In this document: positions 29,718 through 35,700 of the stretch, piece after piece
Numbering within the stretch: the stretch's first letter is position 1
Layout of the letters: each line of letters opens with the position of its first letter
Assembly: GCF_963506605.1 (NCBI RefSeq)
Contig: NC_083276.1
Coordinates: 81,468,001 to 81,532,000, forward strand
Direction of reading: 5' to 3'
Origin: Zootoca vivipara
Lineage: Eukaryota
DNA: 64,000 nucleotides
Position numbers: made by a program

Positions 29718-32700
29718 TTATTACTTCTACCCCACCCATCTGGCTGGGTTTCCCCAGCCACTCGGGGCGGCTTTCAACAGAACATTAAAAACAGAATAAA
29801 ACTTCAAACATTAAAAAATTCCCTAAATAGAACTGCCTTCAGATGTCTTATAAAAGTCGGATAGTTGTTTATTTCATTGACCTCTGACGGGAGGGCATTC
29901 CACAGGGCGGGCGCCACTACCGAGAAGGCCCTCTGCCTGGTTCTAAGAAACCTAGAAGATGGTTGGAAGGGGCAACTCATCTGCATATCCCCCTTCTAGC
30001 CAGAGGGCAAAGCGCTTATGTGTGTGAAAAAAACAATAGACTGCAGCTGAGACAGAGAGCTTGGTTGGGGGCTCTGTAAGTATATAAGGATCTGAGGGCA
30101 TTGGCTGTCTTTCCTGGAGATCTGTGAGGTTCAGTTCTCTGTCAGAGTGTTTCATCTGTGTGGCTCCACCTGTGCTCAACATGTATATTTGTAAATAAAC
30201 ACAAATATTACAAAATGTCAAATAAGCTTTCAGCGGCCTCCTTCCCAAGTAAACCAAACCCAGATAAAAACTGAACCTTTAGAACTACTCGTTGTTCAGG
30301 GAAATGGAGTGAACATAACAATCTATCATGGGACAGCTCAGTCAGTAGAGCATGATACTCTTGATCTCAGGGTCATAGATTTGACCCCCATGTTGGGTGG
30401 AAGATTCTTACATTTCATGGGGTTGGGCTAGATTATCCTTGTGGTCCCTTCCAACTCTATGATTCTATGCAAGACACAAAGTTCCCCATTCTGCATTTTC
30501 CTCATGAGGCAAGCACATCATTTTTGTTGGTTCAAGAGGAAAAGAAGTAGTATAAAAAAATAGAATTCCTGGATTCTAAGATCCAAGTTTGGGGCATGAC
30601 CAAATGGCACCTGTGTGTCGCTTATAGTGTCTTCTTTGCCCCTTAGGCAAAGCTCTCTCACCAGGCTACTATCAGCTGAAAATAAAATTGTGTATTTGTG
30701 AGTCCTGTGGAGCCCATGGGATAGGGTAGGAAAGAAATAGTTATGAATTAGAAGTTATTTAAATTGCTCCCATCAGCAATAGCTTTCTATAGTGAAGATG
30801 AACTAGGTCGAAGCGATACATTTAAGTCAAGAAAACAGTATTAAAGAATTCCCAGGAGCAGCTAAGATTAAAAAACAAACATATTTGTAGTTCTTTGTCA
30901 TTATCTTCCTTCACTCCCTATTCACTGCAAAAAGTGCTAATTGAGGTGGAAGGGATGTTGCTGTGCAAATGTGGTCTGGGACCACCGGTGAAAAGAAGGA
31001 TCGCGTCACATGCAGACCACCAACAACATATTTCATTCATATTTACACACATCCAAAAACATCCTGAGAGTTCTGGCAAAATGTGTGATTACTTCCATTA
31101 TGGAAGTAATATTGAGCTCTGCTGGTGAAGTCAAGCATAGAGGACAGAGGGCAGGGTTGTACGTTGTGGAAATAGCAGGCAACCTCTGCAGCAGGGTAGA
31201 AGCAATAGCCTTTCCCAAACTGGCGTCATGACATTTCTTGGGAAGAGATTGGCCCTGCAGTTCAACCCGTGCTTAGCAGCACTTCCAACATAACACTTCA
31301 GAGATAAGCCTCTGAAGACCCATGTCTTACATTGTGTACAAATGTTACTAAGGAATGGTTATATCTCCATCTGTCTCATTGCAAAGATAAAGGAAAAAAA
31401 GGAACTCATATAACCTGTGGTTGGTTTCTGAATTCATCTCCACAGTGATAACCATGTAGATATTGTTTTTAAGTGACACTTTCATACATGATGCATATTT
31501 AAAGTAATATAAGAAGCCTCTATGAATGTACTTGGAAAAAACAGAACATACAGTGGTACCTCTACTTACGAATTTAATGCGTTCCGAACGCACATTTGCA
31601 AGTCGAAAAAAATTGTAAGTCGAATCCCATAGGAATGCATTGGGAGGAAAAAAATTGTAAGTCGAAGCAACCCTATCTAAAAATTCGTAAGTAGAAAAAA
31701 TCCTATCTAAACCGCATCCAAGATGGCGGACGGAGCTCCATTCGTAAGTAGAGTTATTCACAAGTAGAGGTACCACTGTATTGGGTTTGATTGCCATACC
31801 CTCAAACATGGTTGGGAGAACATGTGGCTCTCCGGATGTCACTGGGCAACAGCTTCCATTCCACCTCAGTATGACCAATGATCAGGGATGCTGTGGGTTG
31901 TAGCCAATCAGCATCTGGAGGGCCACAGACACTGGTGGAGGATGAGGAGTGGGGGGGGAGCACACCGCCCCCGGCAGCGCGATCCCGGTGGGGTGCCATC
32001 GCAGCTGTCCCCCCCCCCGTGCTGGGCACCACACCCCTGTAGGTGGCATGACACACCCCTGCGGGCAGCACACCACGTCCCCAGGACACGCACCACGCCC
32101 CTGGGACGTGTGCCAGCCCTGTCCCCACCTGCTCTCCGCCCCCTGGTGCCAGAGCATGAAGCTCCACCACTGGCCACAGATTCTCCATCCTTGCCTTTTA
32201 AAGAAAACATGCCTTATTTAATACACCAGAACAGTGAACACCCCTGTTCTTCATGCACCTCCCTTCTAGACAGTGCCACCTGTTGGGAGTGCCTTCCAGG
32301 ACAATGGCCCAGCGAGCAGCAGGACAGATGCATCCCAACCATCTTTGACTTCTTGTCCTACACAGAAGCTTTGGGTGTGGTGCTGGCAACCTGCAGTTCC
32401 TTGTTCTTCTTGCTCTCGCTGTCAGTCTTGGGTATCTTCATACAGCATCACCACACCCCAGTTGTCAAGGCCAACAACCACAAGCTCAGCTACCTCCTCT
32501 TGACCTCCCTGGCTCTCTGCTTCCTCTGCCCTCTGATGTACCTTGGGCACCCATCCCAGCTCACTTGTTCCTTCCGCCAGGCTGCCTTTGGCCTGGTCTT
32601 TGCCATTTGCCTCTCTGCAACCCTGGCCAAGATGGTGACTGTGGTGATGGCCTTTGGAGCTTCTAAGCCTGGCAGCTGCCTCCAGAAGTGGGTGGGTTAT

Positions 32701-35700
32701 AAGCTCCCTGGCGCTCTCACCCTGGGCTGCTCCCTTGTCCAAGCTGCTGTATGTGTCTGCTGGATAACGGTTTGCCCCCCGTTCCCATTACAGAACCCAC
32801 TACATGGGGGGCCTCTTGTGACCCTGGAGTGTGACAAAGGCTCAGTTGAGTTTTTCTACACCATGCTGGGGTACCTAGGCTTTCTAGCCACCATCAGCTT
32901 AGGGGTGGCCTTCCCAGCTTGCCAGCTGGCAACAGCTTTCAACGAGGCCCAACACATTGCCATCAGCATGCTGGTCTTCACTTTCGTCTGGGTCTCCTTT
33001 GTGCCCTCCTATCTCAGTGCCACAGGGAAGTACACGGTGGCCGTGGAGATCTTCGCCATCCTGGCTTCTGGAGCTGGTTTGCTGGCTTGCCTCTTCTTCC
33101 CCAAATGCTACATCATTATTTTGCACCCTAAGAAGAATAACAGGGACCACCTGATGGGCAGACAAAGGAGACTTTGCTTATGCTCCATGAGCTACAAATG
33201 GACAGCACATATATTTAGGAAAAGAGTTTCTGTCCCACTTTTGTCCCACTTTTCTGTTTATCTACACCAGGCCTGGGGAGCCAGAAAGAGCCCCTTTGTA
33301 AAGAGCACAGCACCTAGAAGCACCGATGGTCAGCTGATCTCTGCTTCAGAAGCCCCTGTTGGCCCAGCCCAGCCATCTTTTTACCTGTCCACACTTGATG
33401 CCATGTTATGACATCAGCTGTAGAGGCAAGTGAGCATGTCTTGGGGCAAAATTTTAAAAAGGCCTAGTGTTTAGGGAAGCTTTAAATGTTTGACGGACTA
33501 TTGTATTTTAATATTTTGTTGGAAATCCGCCCAGAGTGGCTGGGGAAACCCAGCCAGATGGGCAGGGTATAAATAAATTATTATTATTATCATTACTAGT
33601 ACTACTACTAGTAGTAGCAGTAGTAGTGGGCCACATGGGAGGAGGAGCCTTGGTTCTCAGCCGGGAGGTTTCTCACTGGTGATCTACACCCAAGGCAGCT
33701 TACAACCAGGGCCGGATTTAGGTTTGATGAGGCCCTAAGCTTCTGAAGGTAATGGGGCCCTTTATATGTCTAGCTGTCCTTTGTCAACAACAAGTTGTCG
33801 CTGTTTTTTGTGTTGAATATATGCTATATGGTAATTTATGGACCTAATGGGTATCTAAAGCCATTTGCACATAACAAAATATGTATTTTATCAAAGTAAT
33901 TGTTGAACTGAAATGCAATTAATAAGAAGTATATTAATAGTGAAATCATTTTTAAGTTCTAACTTAAAATGATTTTTTATTCATAACAAACTGAATAATG
34001 CAAACACATCATTTGGCAACAACAAAAGTTCATTTAGAAATGAGTTAAAGCAGTGATATCTTGGGGAGCAGGCTAGCAGGCGGGGCCCATTACTTACATC
34101 ATAGAAATGCTTTGATGGTGTTTCCTGCTCGGCAGGGGGTTGGACTGGATGGCCCTTGTGGTCTCTTCCAACTCTACGATTCTATGATTCTATACACAAC
34201 ACAAAACACTGTTGCTGTATGTAGGTTTTATTTCATTTTTTTTATCTTATATTTTGGAAATGTACATCCAGGGGTTTTTTTTCCTTTAATTTTTTGGGGA
34301 CCCCCAAGAGAGTGGGGCCCTAAGCTATGGCTTGTTTAGCTTATATGTAAATCCGGCACTGCTTACAACACCAGCAATTAAACTACAGTCAAGCGATGAG
34401 CATACTAAAAATTAAATGTGACATTCAATTAAACGAGTCCCGTCAACAAAAGCCCTGCACAAAGACTTCTGCTTATGCAACAGGGCTTTCTCCTCCCTCT
34501 GCACCCCTTGAAATTGGTTGGGAGTGGGTCCAGGTTAACCCCAGAACAGCACATAGTGGGAAGAGGGGGGGGGGCGTTGAATCAGGTAAGCAGAAATGAA
34601 ATGAAGGGAAGAGTGCAATGCTGAATTCCACTCTAAGTAGTTAATAGTGGCAGGGACAGCAGCACATAAATGCACAAATATCTTGAGGGGAAAAGAATGG
34701 AGTTCCCATCTTCTTTGGACTGTTTCCACTCATTTTTGAGCAACTTTCATGTGGAAAGGAGCAGAACTCCTTCCACCAATATCCAATATAATAAAAGTTT
34801 TTTCACAGGGACTTCATGGCTTACCATGCCTTGCGCTGAAAGGGAGGAAATGCTGCCATGTACATGGATATATTCTTGTTAAACTTACATTGTATTGATG
34901 TTTAACTGTCCAAACTGAAAACCAGGTCTAGTCAGTAAGATGTTGTAGGGATAAGAAAGCTGTGTTGTCAGTGGTTTCACAGAAACATGCCTTTCTCTGG
35001 GAAGGGATTTACTTATTTAGATTTCTAGGACTGTTATATCACTCCTCAGAGCAAGCAGCAATGAAGCTGAAGTGATAGAGAAGAATGTGATGTGGTTTTG
35101 ATAGGAGTTTGGTACAGCTATTTTTGTTTAATCAGTTGAAATATCATTAGCTGTTATTTTGATACAGATGTATGGATTTTAATTTTATTTTTTTAAATAT
35201 TACCTGTTACACATTTTCTTCAGAAAATAAAATGGGAGGGGGCATAAATATGCAGTTAAATATCTCCCTGCCCATAACTCTAGAGTAGATTCTCATTTGG
35301 ATCAAGTTACCGTGCCAACAGCAATCTTGCACCAACAGCAATTCTGTAAGATAGTTTTCCATCTACAAAAAAATCCAACCCAAGGTTAAAAGGTGACAGC
35401 TTACCTGTGATCCCTCAGCTAAACTGGGATTGGAACGAGAAGAGTGGAGCAAAGGGAGCTATTAAGGATGGTTCTCAGGTAGATAGGAATGGCTTATGCT
35501 GCAAAATATCCCTCCAACCCCCAACCCCCCCAGAAGAAATCAGGTTGAGTTCTTGTCACGTTGCAAGCTGCTTATTCTTGGAAATAACCCTGTATAAGGC
35601 CCCCTTCACTTCTGCATTCCGTAGGCTATAGATGAGGGGGTTGAGCACAGGGGTGACTATTGCATAAAATACTGACACCACCTTGTTGAGGTTGATCGAC

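What the first reader, a model, noticed from the sequence alone, without database searches (positions are those of the whole stretch)
32270..33411. Orphan V2R (class C GPCR) 7TM exon embedded inside an olfactory-receptor cluster
Seen: a frame-intact V2R terminal exon with its canonical phase-1 acceptor sits 3.2 kb after OR10W1-like and 2.1 kb from OR6Q1-like. By eye I find no Venus-flytrap or Cys-rich upstream exons in the window. Established: V2Rs need about five upstream exons for ligand binding and usually cluster apart from ORs; I recall none in the human block. Options: (a) relic of a deleted or transposed V2R; (b) distant exons with ORs nested in its introns; (c) splicing from the OR10W1-like 5' non-coding exon (candidate donor near 28018), putting a headless class C receptor under OR-type control.
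Basis: partly seen in the sequence, partly recalled or inferred. Interest (0 to 1): 0.68.

Follow-up and report, generated by a model that had tools for sequence, protein, structure and literature searches.

The report
Stranded last exon of lizard V2R
This is the last, membrane-spanning exon of an old vomeronasal-type receptor gene that sits among smell-receptor genes in a lizard, here cut off from its ligand-binding exons and showing early signs of decay, so it is more likely a fading gene remnant than a new kind of receptor.

Summary
Window 32270-33411 (+) is an open class C GPCR exon with a complete 7tm_3 domain (E 3.7e-70) behind an AG acceptor. No Venus-flytrap or Cys-rich exon lies anywhere in the 64 kb, on either strand (control). 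There are no assembly gaps.

It is not a stray copy. It is the ortholog (97% identity) of the last exon of multi-exon genes in Lacerta agilis and Podarcis raffonei, which carry both missing domains and join them at this boundary. It belongs to a strongly supported amniote lineage with marsupial and placental members, separate from the squamate V2R expansion. That lineage is probably the mammalian VN2R2/family D-like line.

Neighbours are an OR10W1-like gene and CTNND1. A pangolin gene model fuses an OR fragment to flytrap exons of this lineage, so residence in the OR cluster looks ancestral.

This copy has:
- a frameshifted C-terminal tail;
- three replacements at near-invariant residues on the G-protein-coupling face;
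- a terminal branch about five times longer than its sisters'.

Best reading: a stranded, decaying exon (0.5). A giant intron (0.25) or a headless receptor (0.08) is not excluded.

The parts
32240..32269 (+). Pyrimidine-rich tract and AG acceptor (AG at 32268-32269) of the last intron
   Evidence: Read directly. The boundary coincides with the point where the Lacerta agilis and Podarcis raffonei proteins pass from the Cys-rich exon into ...D|SATCWEC.
32270..33411 (+). Terminal V2R-type exon: end of the Cys-rich linker, seven transmembrane helices, and a frameshifted tail ending in stop TGA at 33409-33411
   Evidence: It is 97% identical to P0003 (Lacerta agilis) and P0122 (Podarcis raffonei) over 298 residues.
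32353..33105 (+). Complete 7tm_3 (class C GPCR) domain
   Evidence: Pfam PF00003, profile positions 1-251 of 251, E 3.7e-70. It aligns to the 7TM domain of solved calcium-sensing receptor structures, E 2.6e-66.
32209..32211 (+). In-frame ATG inside the intron; start of the 400-aa ORF with the 7TM domain alone that reads through the acceptor
   Evidence: P0204 (400 aa, 7tm_3 only, source masked because the window encodes it) equals this ORF. The next in-frame ATG is at 32536, in the 'CPLMYLG' stretch that I assign to TM2 by eye.
32632..32634 (+). Codon ATG (Met) where relatives have Thr, next to the Lys of the 'AKT/VKT' motif that I assign to the cytoplasmic end of TM3 (assignment recalled, not computed)
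   Evidence: Thr in 22 of 23 lineage members and 277 of 290 other relatives; Met in 0 of 290. Codon.
32920..32931 (+). Intracellular loop 3 motif changed from R-R-L-P to C-Q-L-A
   Evidence: First position: Arg in 284 of 290 other relatives, Cys in 0 of 290. Fourth position: Pro in 23 of 23 lineage members and 289 of 290 others. The motif aligns to 'SRKLPENFNEAK' of the calcium-sensing receptor.
33163..33190 (+). Frameshift site, followed by the ancestral tail and stop, which are now out of frame
   Evidence: The sisters end ...GRQLPRKGDFAYAP*. In the window, KGDFAYAP* is encoded at 33164-33190 in frame +1 relative to the exon. This implies a net loss of 3n+2 bases, 11 if the codons are collinear.
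33166..33411 (+). Frameshifted extension of 81 codons plus the stop, with no counterpart in any relative
   Evidence: Alignment; translation.
28146..29099 (+). Upstream neighbour: intact OR10W1-like olfactory receptor gene
   Evidence: Pfam 7tm_4, E 1.6e-49. Best representative at 62% identity is named 'olfactory receptor 10W1-like'; the next listed reach at most 49%.
35556..36506 (-). Downstream neighbour: intact olfactory receptor gene (subfamily not checked)
   Evidence: Pfam 7tm_4, E 1.1e-54.
28010..28027 (+).
   Evidence: It matches 6 of 9 consensus positions. An ATG at 27982 leaves 12 open codons plus 1 base (phase 1). 14 sites matching at least 8 of 9 positions lie in 1-32200 on the same strand.
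58083..58841 (-). Frame holding a CTNND1 (catenin delta-1) exon; anchors the locus
   Evidence: Residues 31-104 match catenin delta-1 chain 3l6x_A residues 385-458, E 3.6e-30.

Best explanation
The exon is the terminal, seven-helix exon of the lizard ortholog of an old, mostly single-copy amniote V2R lineage, probably the lineage called VN2R2 or family D-like in mammals. It sits at that lineage's ancestral place among the ORs next to CTNND1. In relatives, this exon is spliced through the same phase-1 acceptor to flytrap and Cys-rich exons, giving an ordinary class C chemoreceptor. In this genome those exons are absent from at least 32 kb upstream and 30 kb downstream. The exon has begun to drift: the native stop has been lost to a frameshift, and three near-invariant residues on the G-protein-coupling face have been replaced. 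I therefore read it as a young relic of a gene that is being lost. It no longer makes a working receptor. It is still open only because too little time has passed for a stop codon to arise.

Shown: identity, orthology, absence of the other exons from the window, the frameshift and the substitutions.
Inferred: that the gene is non-functional, and that the missing exons are deleted or broken rather than merely far away.
For: 1. Family and completeness: 7tm_3 over 251 of 251 positions.
2. Orthology: 97% identity to the Lacerta agilis (719 aa) and Podarcis raffonei (645 aa) proteins, which carry ANF_receptor, NCD3G and 7tm_3 and join at this exact boundary.
3. Tree of 65 rows:
   - the three lacertids group at 100/94;
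   - with Pogona and Eublepharis at 100/100;
   - sister to 12 mammal rows in a 17-row clade at 100/100;
   - apart from the 17-row squamate V2R expansion, also at 100/100.
4. No other V2R exon in the window, with a sensitivity control and no gaps.
5. Decay signs:
   - The tail is frameshifted and the ancestral stop is out of frame.
   - Eight substitutions are private to the window, against one each in the sisters.
   - Three of them fall on columns conserved in at least 95% of 313 relatives: T to M, R to C and P to A.
   - The window's end branch is 0.036, against 0.0037 plus 0.0028 for each sister.
   - Three of eight changes landing on the 66 conserved columns out of 300 is what random placement would give (expected 1.8).
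   - By the present codons, four of the eight look like CpG transitions (inference, since no ancestral DNA was available).
6. The only protein held for this genome at this place is the 400-aa ORF with the 7TM domain alone. No third lacertid protein with a flytrap domain appeared.
7. The lineage is patchy. Orthologs were seen in only 5 squamates, counting the window. None appeared for the snakes, the skink (Tiliqua), Sceloporus, the other geckos, Podarcis muralis or Zootoca that showed up only as roughly 50% identical paralogs. Frequent loss is therefore plausible.
Against: - The 7TM part has no stop or frameshift over 298 codons, and the acceptor is intact. This fits a live exon as well as a young relic.
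- The sister species keep joinable upstream exons, so the same may be true here beyond the window.
- The rate excess rests on few changes and is not robust. By hand count, a relative-rate comparison gives 7 against 1 with Pogona as outgroup, but 5 against 3 with Eublepharis.
- 29 of 313 relatives have as many violations of conserved columns as the window, or more.
- The tail change lies after helix 7, where relatives differ anyway.
- No DNA of the sister species was available, so dN/dS could not be computed.
- The source of the 400-aa protein is masked. It may come from plain ORF calling and so say nothing about the upstream exons.
- A sequencing error could mimic the frameshift.
Confidence: 0.5

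Rival explanations
1. Ordinary live gene with a giant last intron. The flytrap and Cys-rich exons lie more than 32 kb upstream, beyond the window. The two same-strand OR genes (20916-21908 and 28146-29099) are nested in the intron, and the exon is spliced normally.
For: - The acceptor is intact and the 7TM part is open.
- Lacerta agilis and Podarcis raffonei models join upstream exons to this boundary, and their 7TM sequences are almost unchanged.
- The lineage has been kept for the whole of amniote history.
Against: - The intron alone would exceed the mean length of whole mouse V2R genes, about 25.3 kb (PMC11035023, passage).
- This copy alone carries the frameshifted tail and the three hits at near-invariant residues.
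- No flytrap-bearing protein from a third lacertid was seen.
Confidence: 0.25
2. Headless receptor. The exon is expressed without a flytrap domain, either from the in-frame ATG at 32209 by reading through the acceptor, or from a short 5' exon such as the one ending at 28018. The product would be a class C protein with the 7TM domain only, possibly under OR-cluster control.
For: - An ORF of 400 codons from ATG 32209 exists and is held as a protein for this genome. It has A at position -3.
- ATG 27982 leaves 12 open codons plus one base before a GT at 28019, which matches the acceptor's phase.
- Recalled, not tested here: isolated 7TM domains of class C receptors can fold and respond to allosteric ligands, and some natural class C members lack a flytrap domain.
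Against: - There is no evidence of transcription.
- The donor matches only 6 of 9 consensus positions, and 14 better sites lie upstream.
- The phase match has about a one-in-three chance.
- O/E-like motifs are not enriched: 24 against 26.6 expected.
- The GC-rich patch upstream is not a CpG island (CpG o/e 0.34-0.40).
- The replaced residues sit on the face that couples to G proteins.
- If a non-coding exon were spliced in, the first in-frame ATG would be at 32536, inside the helical bundle.
Confidence: 0.08
3. Assembly artefact. A misjoin or collapsed segment separated the exon from the rest of its gene, and the frameshift is a consensus error.
For: OR clusters are repeat-rich. SINE-like copies flank the exon at 29673-29943 and 33468-33616.
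Against: - The window has no gaps.
- The flanking genes are intact and in a sensible order, from OR10W1-like to CTNND1.
- The eight amino-acid changes cannot be put down to a single indel error.
Confidence: 0.07

Closest known systems
Lacerta agilis 'extracellular calcium-sensing receptor-like' protein (P0003, 719 aa) and its Podarcis raffonei counterpart (P0122, 645 aa)
   Same: 97% identity over the 298 residues from the exon boundary to just past helix 7. The exon boundary is the same, and the proteins fall in the same lacertid clade.
   Different: Those proteins carry ANF_receptor and NCD3G domains and end ...GRQLPRKGDFAYAP. The window has neither domain and has a frameshifted tail of 81 extra codons. 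It also has T to M, R to C and P to A at near-invariant positions. Both sister models also lack the first roughly 155 residues that full-length mammalian members have.
Mammalian lineage that includes Monodelphis 'vomeronasal 2 receptor 615/616' and the Otolemur, Tupaia, Cavia and Loxodonta 'calcium-sensing receptor-like' proteins; probably the strepsirrhine VN2R2 / mouse family D-like line
   Same: 55-61% identity in the 7TM exon, against 47-54% to the other squamate V2Rs compared. The two groups form a 17-row clade with 100/100 support whose branching follows the species tree. Mouse lemur VN2R2 is 2418 bp, has five exons and is described as close to mouse family D (PMC5251345, passages). The Otolemur member here is 808 aa.
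   Different: The equation with VN2R2 and family D is an inference from length and species. No mouse family D sequence was in hand to test it. The mammalian members are full receptors; VN2R2 is expressed in the vomeronasal organ (PMC4173931, passages).
V2R pseudogenes and exon remnants, as described in primates, dog and cow
   Same: A member of a V2R lineage that is often lost, kept as a partial remnant at its original place.
   Different: Here the remnant is still open across the whole 7TM domain, and a protein entry exists for it. The literature on those pseudogenes is recalled from citations in the papers read, not examined.
Class C receptors without a flytrap domain (GPRC5 group, GPR158/179; recalled)
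   Same: A class C seven-helix domain with only a short N-terminus, if the 400-aa ORF were translated.
   Different: Those are old, conserved genes with their own promoters. This is the last exon of a flytrap-bearing gene. No sequence relation beyond the shared fold family was tested.

Membership tests
Class C GPCR / V2R (OlfC) | Complete seven-helix 7tm_3 domain | tested here: met
   PF00003 over 251 of 251 positions, E 3.7e-70. Aligns to calcium-sensing receptor 7TM structures, E 2.6e-66. The FFPKCY and FNEA motifs are present (motif names recalled).
Class C GPCR / V2R (OlfC) | Venus-flytrap (ANF_receptor) ligand-binding domain encoded at the locus | tested here: not met
   No hit in the 64 kb on either strand. 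Control: 74 of 85 and 45 of 47 pieces of held-out V2Rs were found. The sequence beyond the window could not be read.
Class C GPCR / V2R (OlfC) | Cys-rich NCD3G domain | tested here: not met
   Only its last residues (SATCWECLPGQWPSEQQDRC) are at the start of the exon. The separate NCD3G exon of the sister proteins has no match in the window.
Class C GPCR / V2R (OlfC) | Conserved exon boundary before the 7TM exon, with a usable acceptor | tested here: met
   AG at 32268-32269 after a pyrimidine tract. The boundary falls where the sister proteins pass from ...GQFASGTD to SATCWEC. That the sister boundary is an intron is inferred from the Podarcis raffonei model, which skips a 76-residue block, and from the known V2R gene plan.
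Class C GPCR / V2R (OlfC) | Near-invariant residues of the intracellular coupling face (Thr after the TM3 Lys; R-x-L-P of loop 3) | tested here: not met
   Met, Cys and Ala stand at columns that hold Thr in 277 of 290, Arg in 284 of 290 and Pro in 289 of 290 other relatives.
Class C GPCR / V2R (OlfC) | Native C-terminus and stop codon | tested here: not met
   The ancestral tail and stop are encoded at 33164-33190 in another frame. The open frame runs on to 33411.
Amniote 'calcium-sensing receptor-like' V2R lineage (lacertids, Pogona, Eublepharis, marsupials, some placentals) | Falls inside the clade, with species-tree-like branching | tested here: met
   Clades of 3, 5 and 17 rows at 100/94, 100/100 and 100/100. 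The 64 comparison rows were hand-picked from about 320 proteins in hand.
Mammalian V2R family D / VN2R2 | Groups with mouse family D (for example Vmn2r56) and mouse lemur VN2R2 | not tested
   No mouse or mouse lemur sequence was returned by the three protein searches. The link rests on PMC5251345 and PMC3170373 (passages) and on the 808-aa Otolemur member. Supplementary trees of PMC4316634, which could bear on this, could not be seen.
Mammalian V2R family D / VN2R2 | Five-exon gene plan | not testable with these tools
   Only one exon is in the window, and no genomic DNA of relatives was available.
Processed (retro-copied) pseudogene | Upstream exons contiguous with the 7TM part, with no intron signals | tested here: not met
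   By hand alignment of the sequences, the sequence upstream of 32270 shares about 4 of 40 residues with the sister NCD3G exon. An acceptor is present.
Expressed class C receptor with the 7TM domain only | Own start codon, promoter and transcript | tested here: inconclusive
   A start codon and a 400-codon ORF exist. No promoter-like signal stands out. Transcription cannot be tested with these tools.

The most novel reading that the evidence does not exclude
The stranded exon is not dead. It is translated from the ATG at 32209, or from a short upstream exon, into a V2R with the 7TM domain only. Because it lies inside an OR cluster, it would be chosen and expressed like an OR in olfactory neurons. 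That would make it a natural headless class C chemoreceptor, or a partner subunit with altered G-protein coupling.
Probability: 0.06. Interest if true: 0.75.

Novelty: new member of a known kind. Interest (0 to 1): 0.32.

Why it matters
As an orphan exon it is ordinary: one more V2R on its way out, in a lineage that many amniotes have lost.

The modest interest lies around it.
- One V2R lineage appears to have clear orthologs in both squamates and mammals. The 2013 study I read found only family C shared between the two (PMC3590772, passages).
- The lineage seems to have lived inside the OR cluster next to CTNND1 since before reptiles and mammals split. If so, it gives a fixed point for studying how a class C receptor gene behaves inside an OR regulatory neighbourhood.
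- The lizard copy is a natural snapshot of the first steps of losing such a gene.

My literature searches for a V2R tied to this OR block or to CTNND1 found nothing relevant. Neither did the search for headless V2Rs. These searches covered open-access papers only.

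Tried and rejected
- Upstream exons hidden in the window: rejected.
- Homology between the open 130 codons upstream of the acceptor and the NCD3G exon: rejected. Pfam found nothing, and a hand alignment gave about 4 of 40 identities. The tblastn alignment that ran back to 32167 is an extension carried by the strong exon match. The open frame is explained by 62% GC (P about 0.03; 34 stretches this long are open in the window).
- CpG-island promoter upstream of the exon: rejected (CpG o/e 0.34-0.40).
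- OR-type O/E motif enrichment: none (24 found, 26.6 expected).
- The donor at 28018 as something special: no (6 of 9 consensus positions, 14 better sites).
- Transposition by a flanking mobile element: only ordinary SINE-like copies were found. None brackets the exon as a pair in the same orientation.
- Retrocopy: rejected, because an acceptor is present and there is no contiguous upstream exon.
- Relative-rate test: inconclusive, because the result depends on the outgroup.
- Other long ORFs in the window (seven tested, three): no Pfam family.
- The paper that first described VN2R1 and VN2R2 could not be fetched.
- Not checked:
  - The human block.
  - The subfamily of three of the four ORs.

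Full report
**What is there.** The stretch 32270-33411 on the + strand is a real class C GPCR exon. A pyrimidine-rich tract ends in AG at 32268-32269. Two bases complete a split codon, and whole codons run from 32272 to a TGA at 33409-33411. Pfam matches 7tm_3 over all 251 profile positions (E 3.7e-70). The closest solved structures are calcium-sensing receptor 7TM domains (E 2.6e-66). The window has no N.

Four intact OR genes surround the exon: 20916-21908 (+), 28092-29099 (+), 35556-36506 (-) and 41488-42576 (-). The upstream neighbour ends 3170 nt before the exon. Its best representative, at 62% identity, is named 'olfactory receptor 10W1-like', and the next listed reach at most 49%. At 58083-58841 (-) lies a catenin delta-1 exon (E 3.6e-30). 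The subfamilies of the other three ORs were not checked.

**Are the other V2R exons in the window?** No.
- tblastn with eight full-length relatives, one of them 97% identical, found only this exon.
- A profile built from 77 full-length relatives, searched against all 3190 six-frame pieces, matched only profile positions 525-828 of 835; the next hit had E 0.77.
- As a control, the profile recovered 74 of 85 40-residue pieces and 45 of 47 70-residue pieces of five V2Rs not used to build it.
- The poorly conserved first exon could escape such a search. The large flytrap exon and the Cys-rich exon could not.

**What gene does it belong to?** The best hits are 'extracellular calcium-sensing receptor-like' proteins of Lacerta agilis (719 aa) and Podarcis raffonei (645 aa). 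Both are 97% identical over 298 residues. Both carry ANF_receptor, NCD3G and 7tm_3, and both pass from the Cys-rich part into this exon at exactly the window's acceptor. Pogona (75%) and Eublepharis (79%) have counterparts. Next come marsupial and some placental proteins at 55-61%. The many other squamate V2Rs compared reach only 47-54%.

A maximum-likelihood tree of 65 rows was built from the window plus 64 rows hand-picked from about 320 proteins in hand, rooted on GPRC6A and T1R3. It gives the three lacertids at 100/94, the five squamates at 100/100, and squamates plus twelve mammals at 100/100. This clade is separate from a 17-row squamate V2R expansion, also at 100/100. The exon is therefore an ortholog in an old amniote lineage, not a stray duplicate.

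From the literature, mouse lemur VN2R2 is 2418 bp, has five exons and is close to mouse family D (PMC5251345, passages). Vmn2r56 is a family D gene (PMC3170373, passages). The Otolemur member of the clade is 808 aa. I infer, but did not test, that this is the VN2R2/family D-like lineage. A 2013 study saw only family C shared between squamates and mammals (PMC3590772, passages). Supplementary trees of PMC4316634 may bear on this and could not be seen.

**Is the place among ORs an accident?** Probably not. A Manis pentadactyla model named 'Olfactory Receptor 9I1' consists of an OR fragment (residues 1-110) followed by flytrap exons that are 65-75% identical to placental members of this lineage. 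A remnant of the same lineage therefore lies beside an OR in a pangolin. From memory, OR9I1 lies between CTNND1 and OR10W1 in mammals; this was not checked. This one chimeric model is thin evidence, but it argues against recent transposition.

**State of this copy.** Against its two sisters, the window has eight private amino-acid changes, while each sister has one.
- Three fall on columns conserved in at least 95% of 313 relatives. Thr to Met lies next to the TM3 lysine. Arg to Cys and Pro to Ala lie in the R-x-L-P motif of intracellular loop 3. These window residues occur in 0, 0 and 1 of 290 other relatives.
- In the alignment to the calcium-sensing receptor, the loop changes fall on 'SRKLPENFNEAK'. 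From memory, the Arg of that motif is a known loss-of-function site in that receptor.
- The window violates 4 of the 66 conserved columns, the sisters 1 each. 29 of 313 relatives have 4 or more.
- The window's terminal branch is 0.036, against 0.0037 plus 0.0028 for each sister.
- The sisters end ...GRQLPRKGDFAYAP*. In the window, KGDFAYAP* is still encoded at 33164-33190 but in another frame, so the open frame runs on for 81 further codons.
- By the present codons, four of the eight changes look like CpG transitions (inference).

Against this reading, the counts are small. The relative-rate comparison depends on the outgroup: 7 against 1 with Pogona, 5 against 3 with Eublepharis, by hand count. 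The 7TM part is unbroken. No sister DNA was available for dN/dS.

**The headless ORF.** The protein collection holds a 400-aa protein with only 7tm_3, marked as encoded by the window itself. It is the ORF from ATG 32209 read straight through the acceptor. Its source is masked, so I cannot say whether it comes from a eukaryotic annotation or from plain ORF calling. No third lacertid protein with a flytrap domain appeared.

An ATG at 27982 does leave 12 open codons plus one base, which fits the acceptor's phase, but this is at chance level. I analysed each exon on its own. O/E-like motifs are not enriched, and the GC-rich patch upstream is not a CpG island.

**Verdict.** The exon is best read as the stranded terminal exon of a known, often-lost V2R lineage at its ancestral place in the OR cluster, in the early stages of decay (0.5). 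A live gene with an intron over 32 kb that holds two ORs remains possible (0.25). That intron would be longer than the mean whole mouse V2R gene of about 25.3 kb (PMC11035023, passage). A functional headless receptor (0.08) and an assembly artefact (0.07) are less likely. Literature searches for a V2R linked to this OR block or to CTNND1 and for headless V2Rs found nothing relevant among open-access papers.

Noticed in passing
window 58083-58841 (-): A catenin delta-1 (CTNND1) exon: residues 31-104 of this frame match chain 3l6x_A residues 385-458, E 3.6e-30. The right-hand end of the window is therefore the 3' part of CTNND1 on the minus strand.
   Followed up: partly
window 22308-22484 (+): An OR C-terminal fragment about 400 nt after the intact OR at 20916-21908, 72% identical to that OR's last 54 residues. 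It looks like a partial tandem duplicate or pseudogene stub.
   Followed up: no
P0192 (Manis pentadactyla model named 'Olfactory Receptor 9I1', 434 aa): A chimeric gene model: an OR fragment (residues 1-110) followed by flytrap exons 65-75% identical to placental members of this V2R lineage. It hints that a remnant of the lineage lies beside an OR in the pangolin.
   Followed up: partly
P0003, P0122, P0123, P0124 (squamate orthologs): All four squamate models lack the first roughly 155 residues, including the signal peptide, that full-length mammalian members have. The Podarcis raffonei model also skips a 76-residue block, and the Eublepharis model has an internal gap. Either the annotation is incomplete or the lineage is eroding more widely in squamates.
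   Followed up: no
window 3254-3521, 29673-29943, 40064-40334 (+); 33468-33616 (-): Copies of a SINE-like repeat of about 270 nt, 78-86% alike. One partial inverted copy starts 57 nt after the exon's stop.
   Followed up: partly
window 31882-32271 (+): A 390-nt patch with 62% GC immediately upstream of the acceptor, open in the exon's frame (P about 0.03 by composition). Positions 32052-32173 are 71% similar to 16438-16545 (-). It has no Pfam match and is not a CpG island.
   Followed up: yes
window 601-1000, 16401-16700, 23501-24000, 59501-59700: Short CpG-island-like patches (GC at least 0.55, CpG o/e at least 0.6) in an otherwise CpG-poor window. Their relation to OR or CTNND1 promoters is unknown.
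   Followed up: no
PMC4173931 (mouse lemur paper): In the passages shown, the results name VN2R1 as the V2R detected in the main olfactory epithelium, while the discussion names VN2R2. Which one it is matters for any link between residence in an OR cluster and olfactory expression.
   Followed up: no
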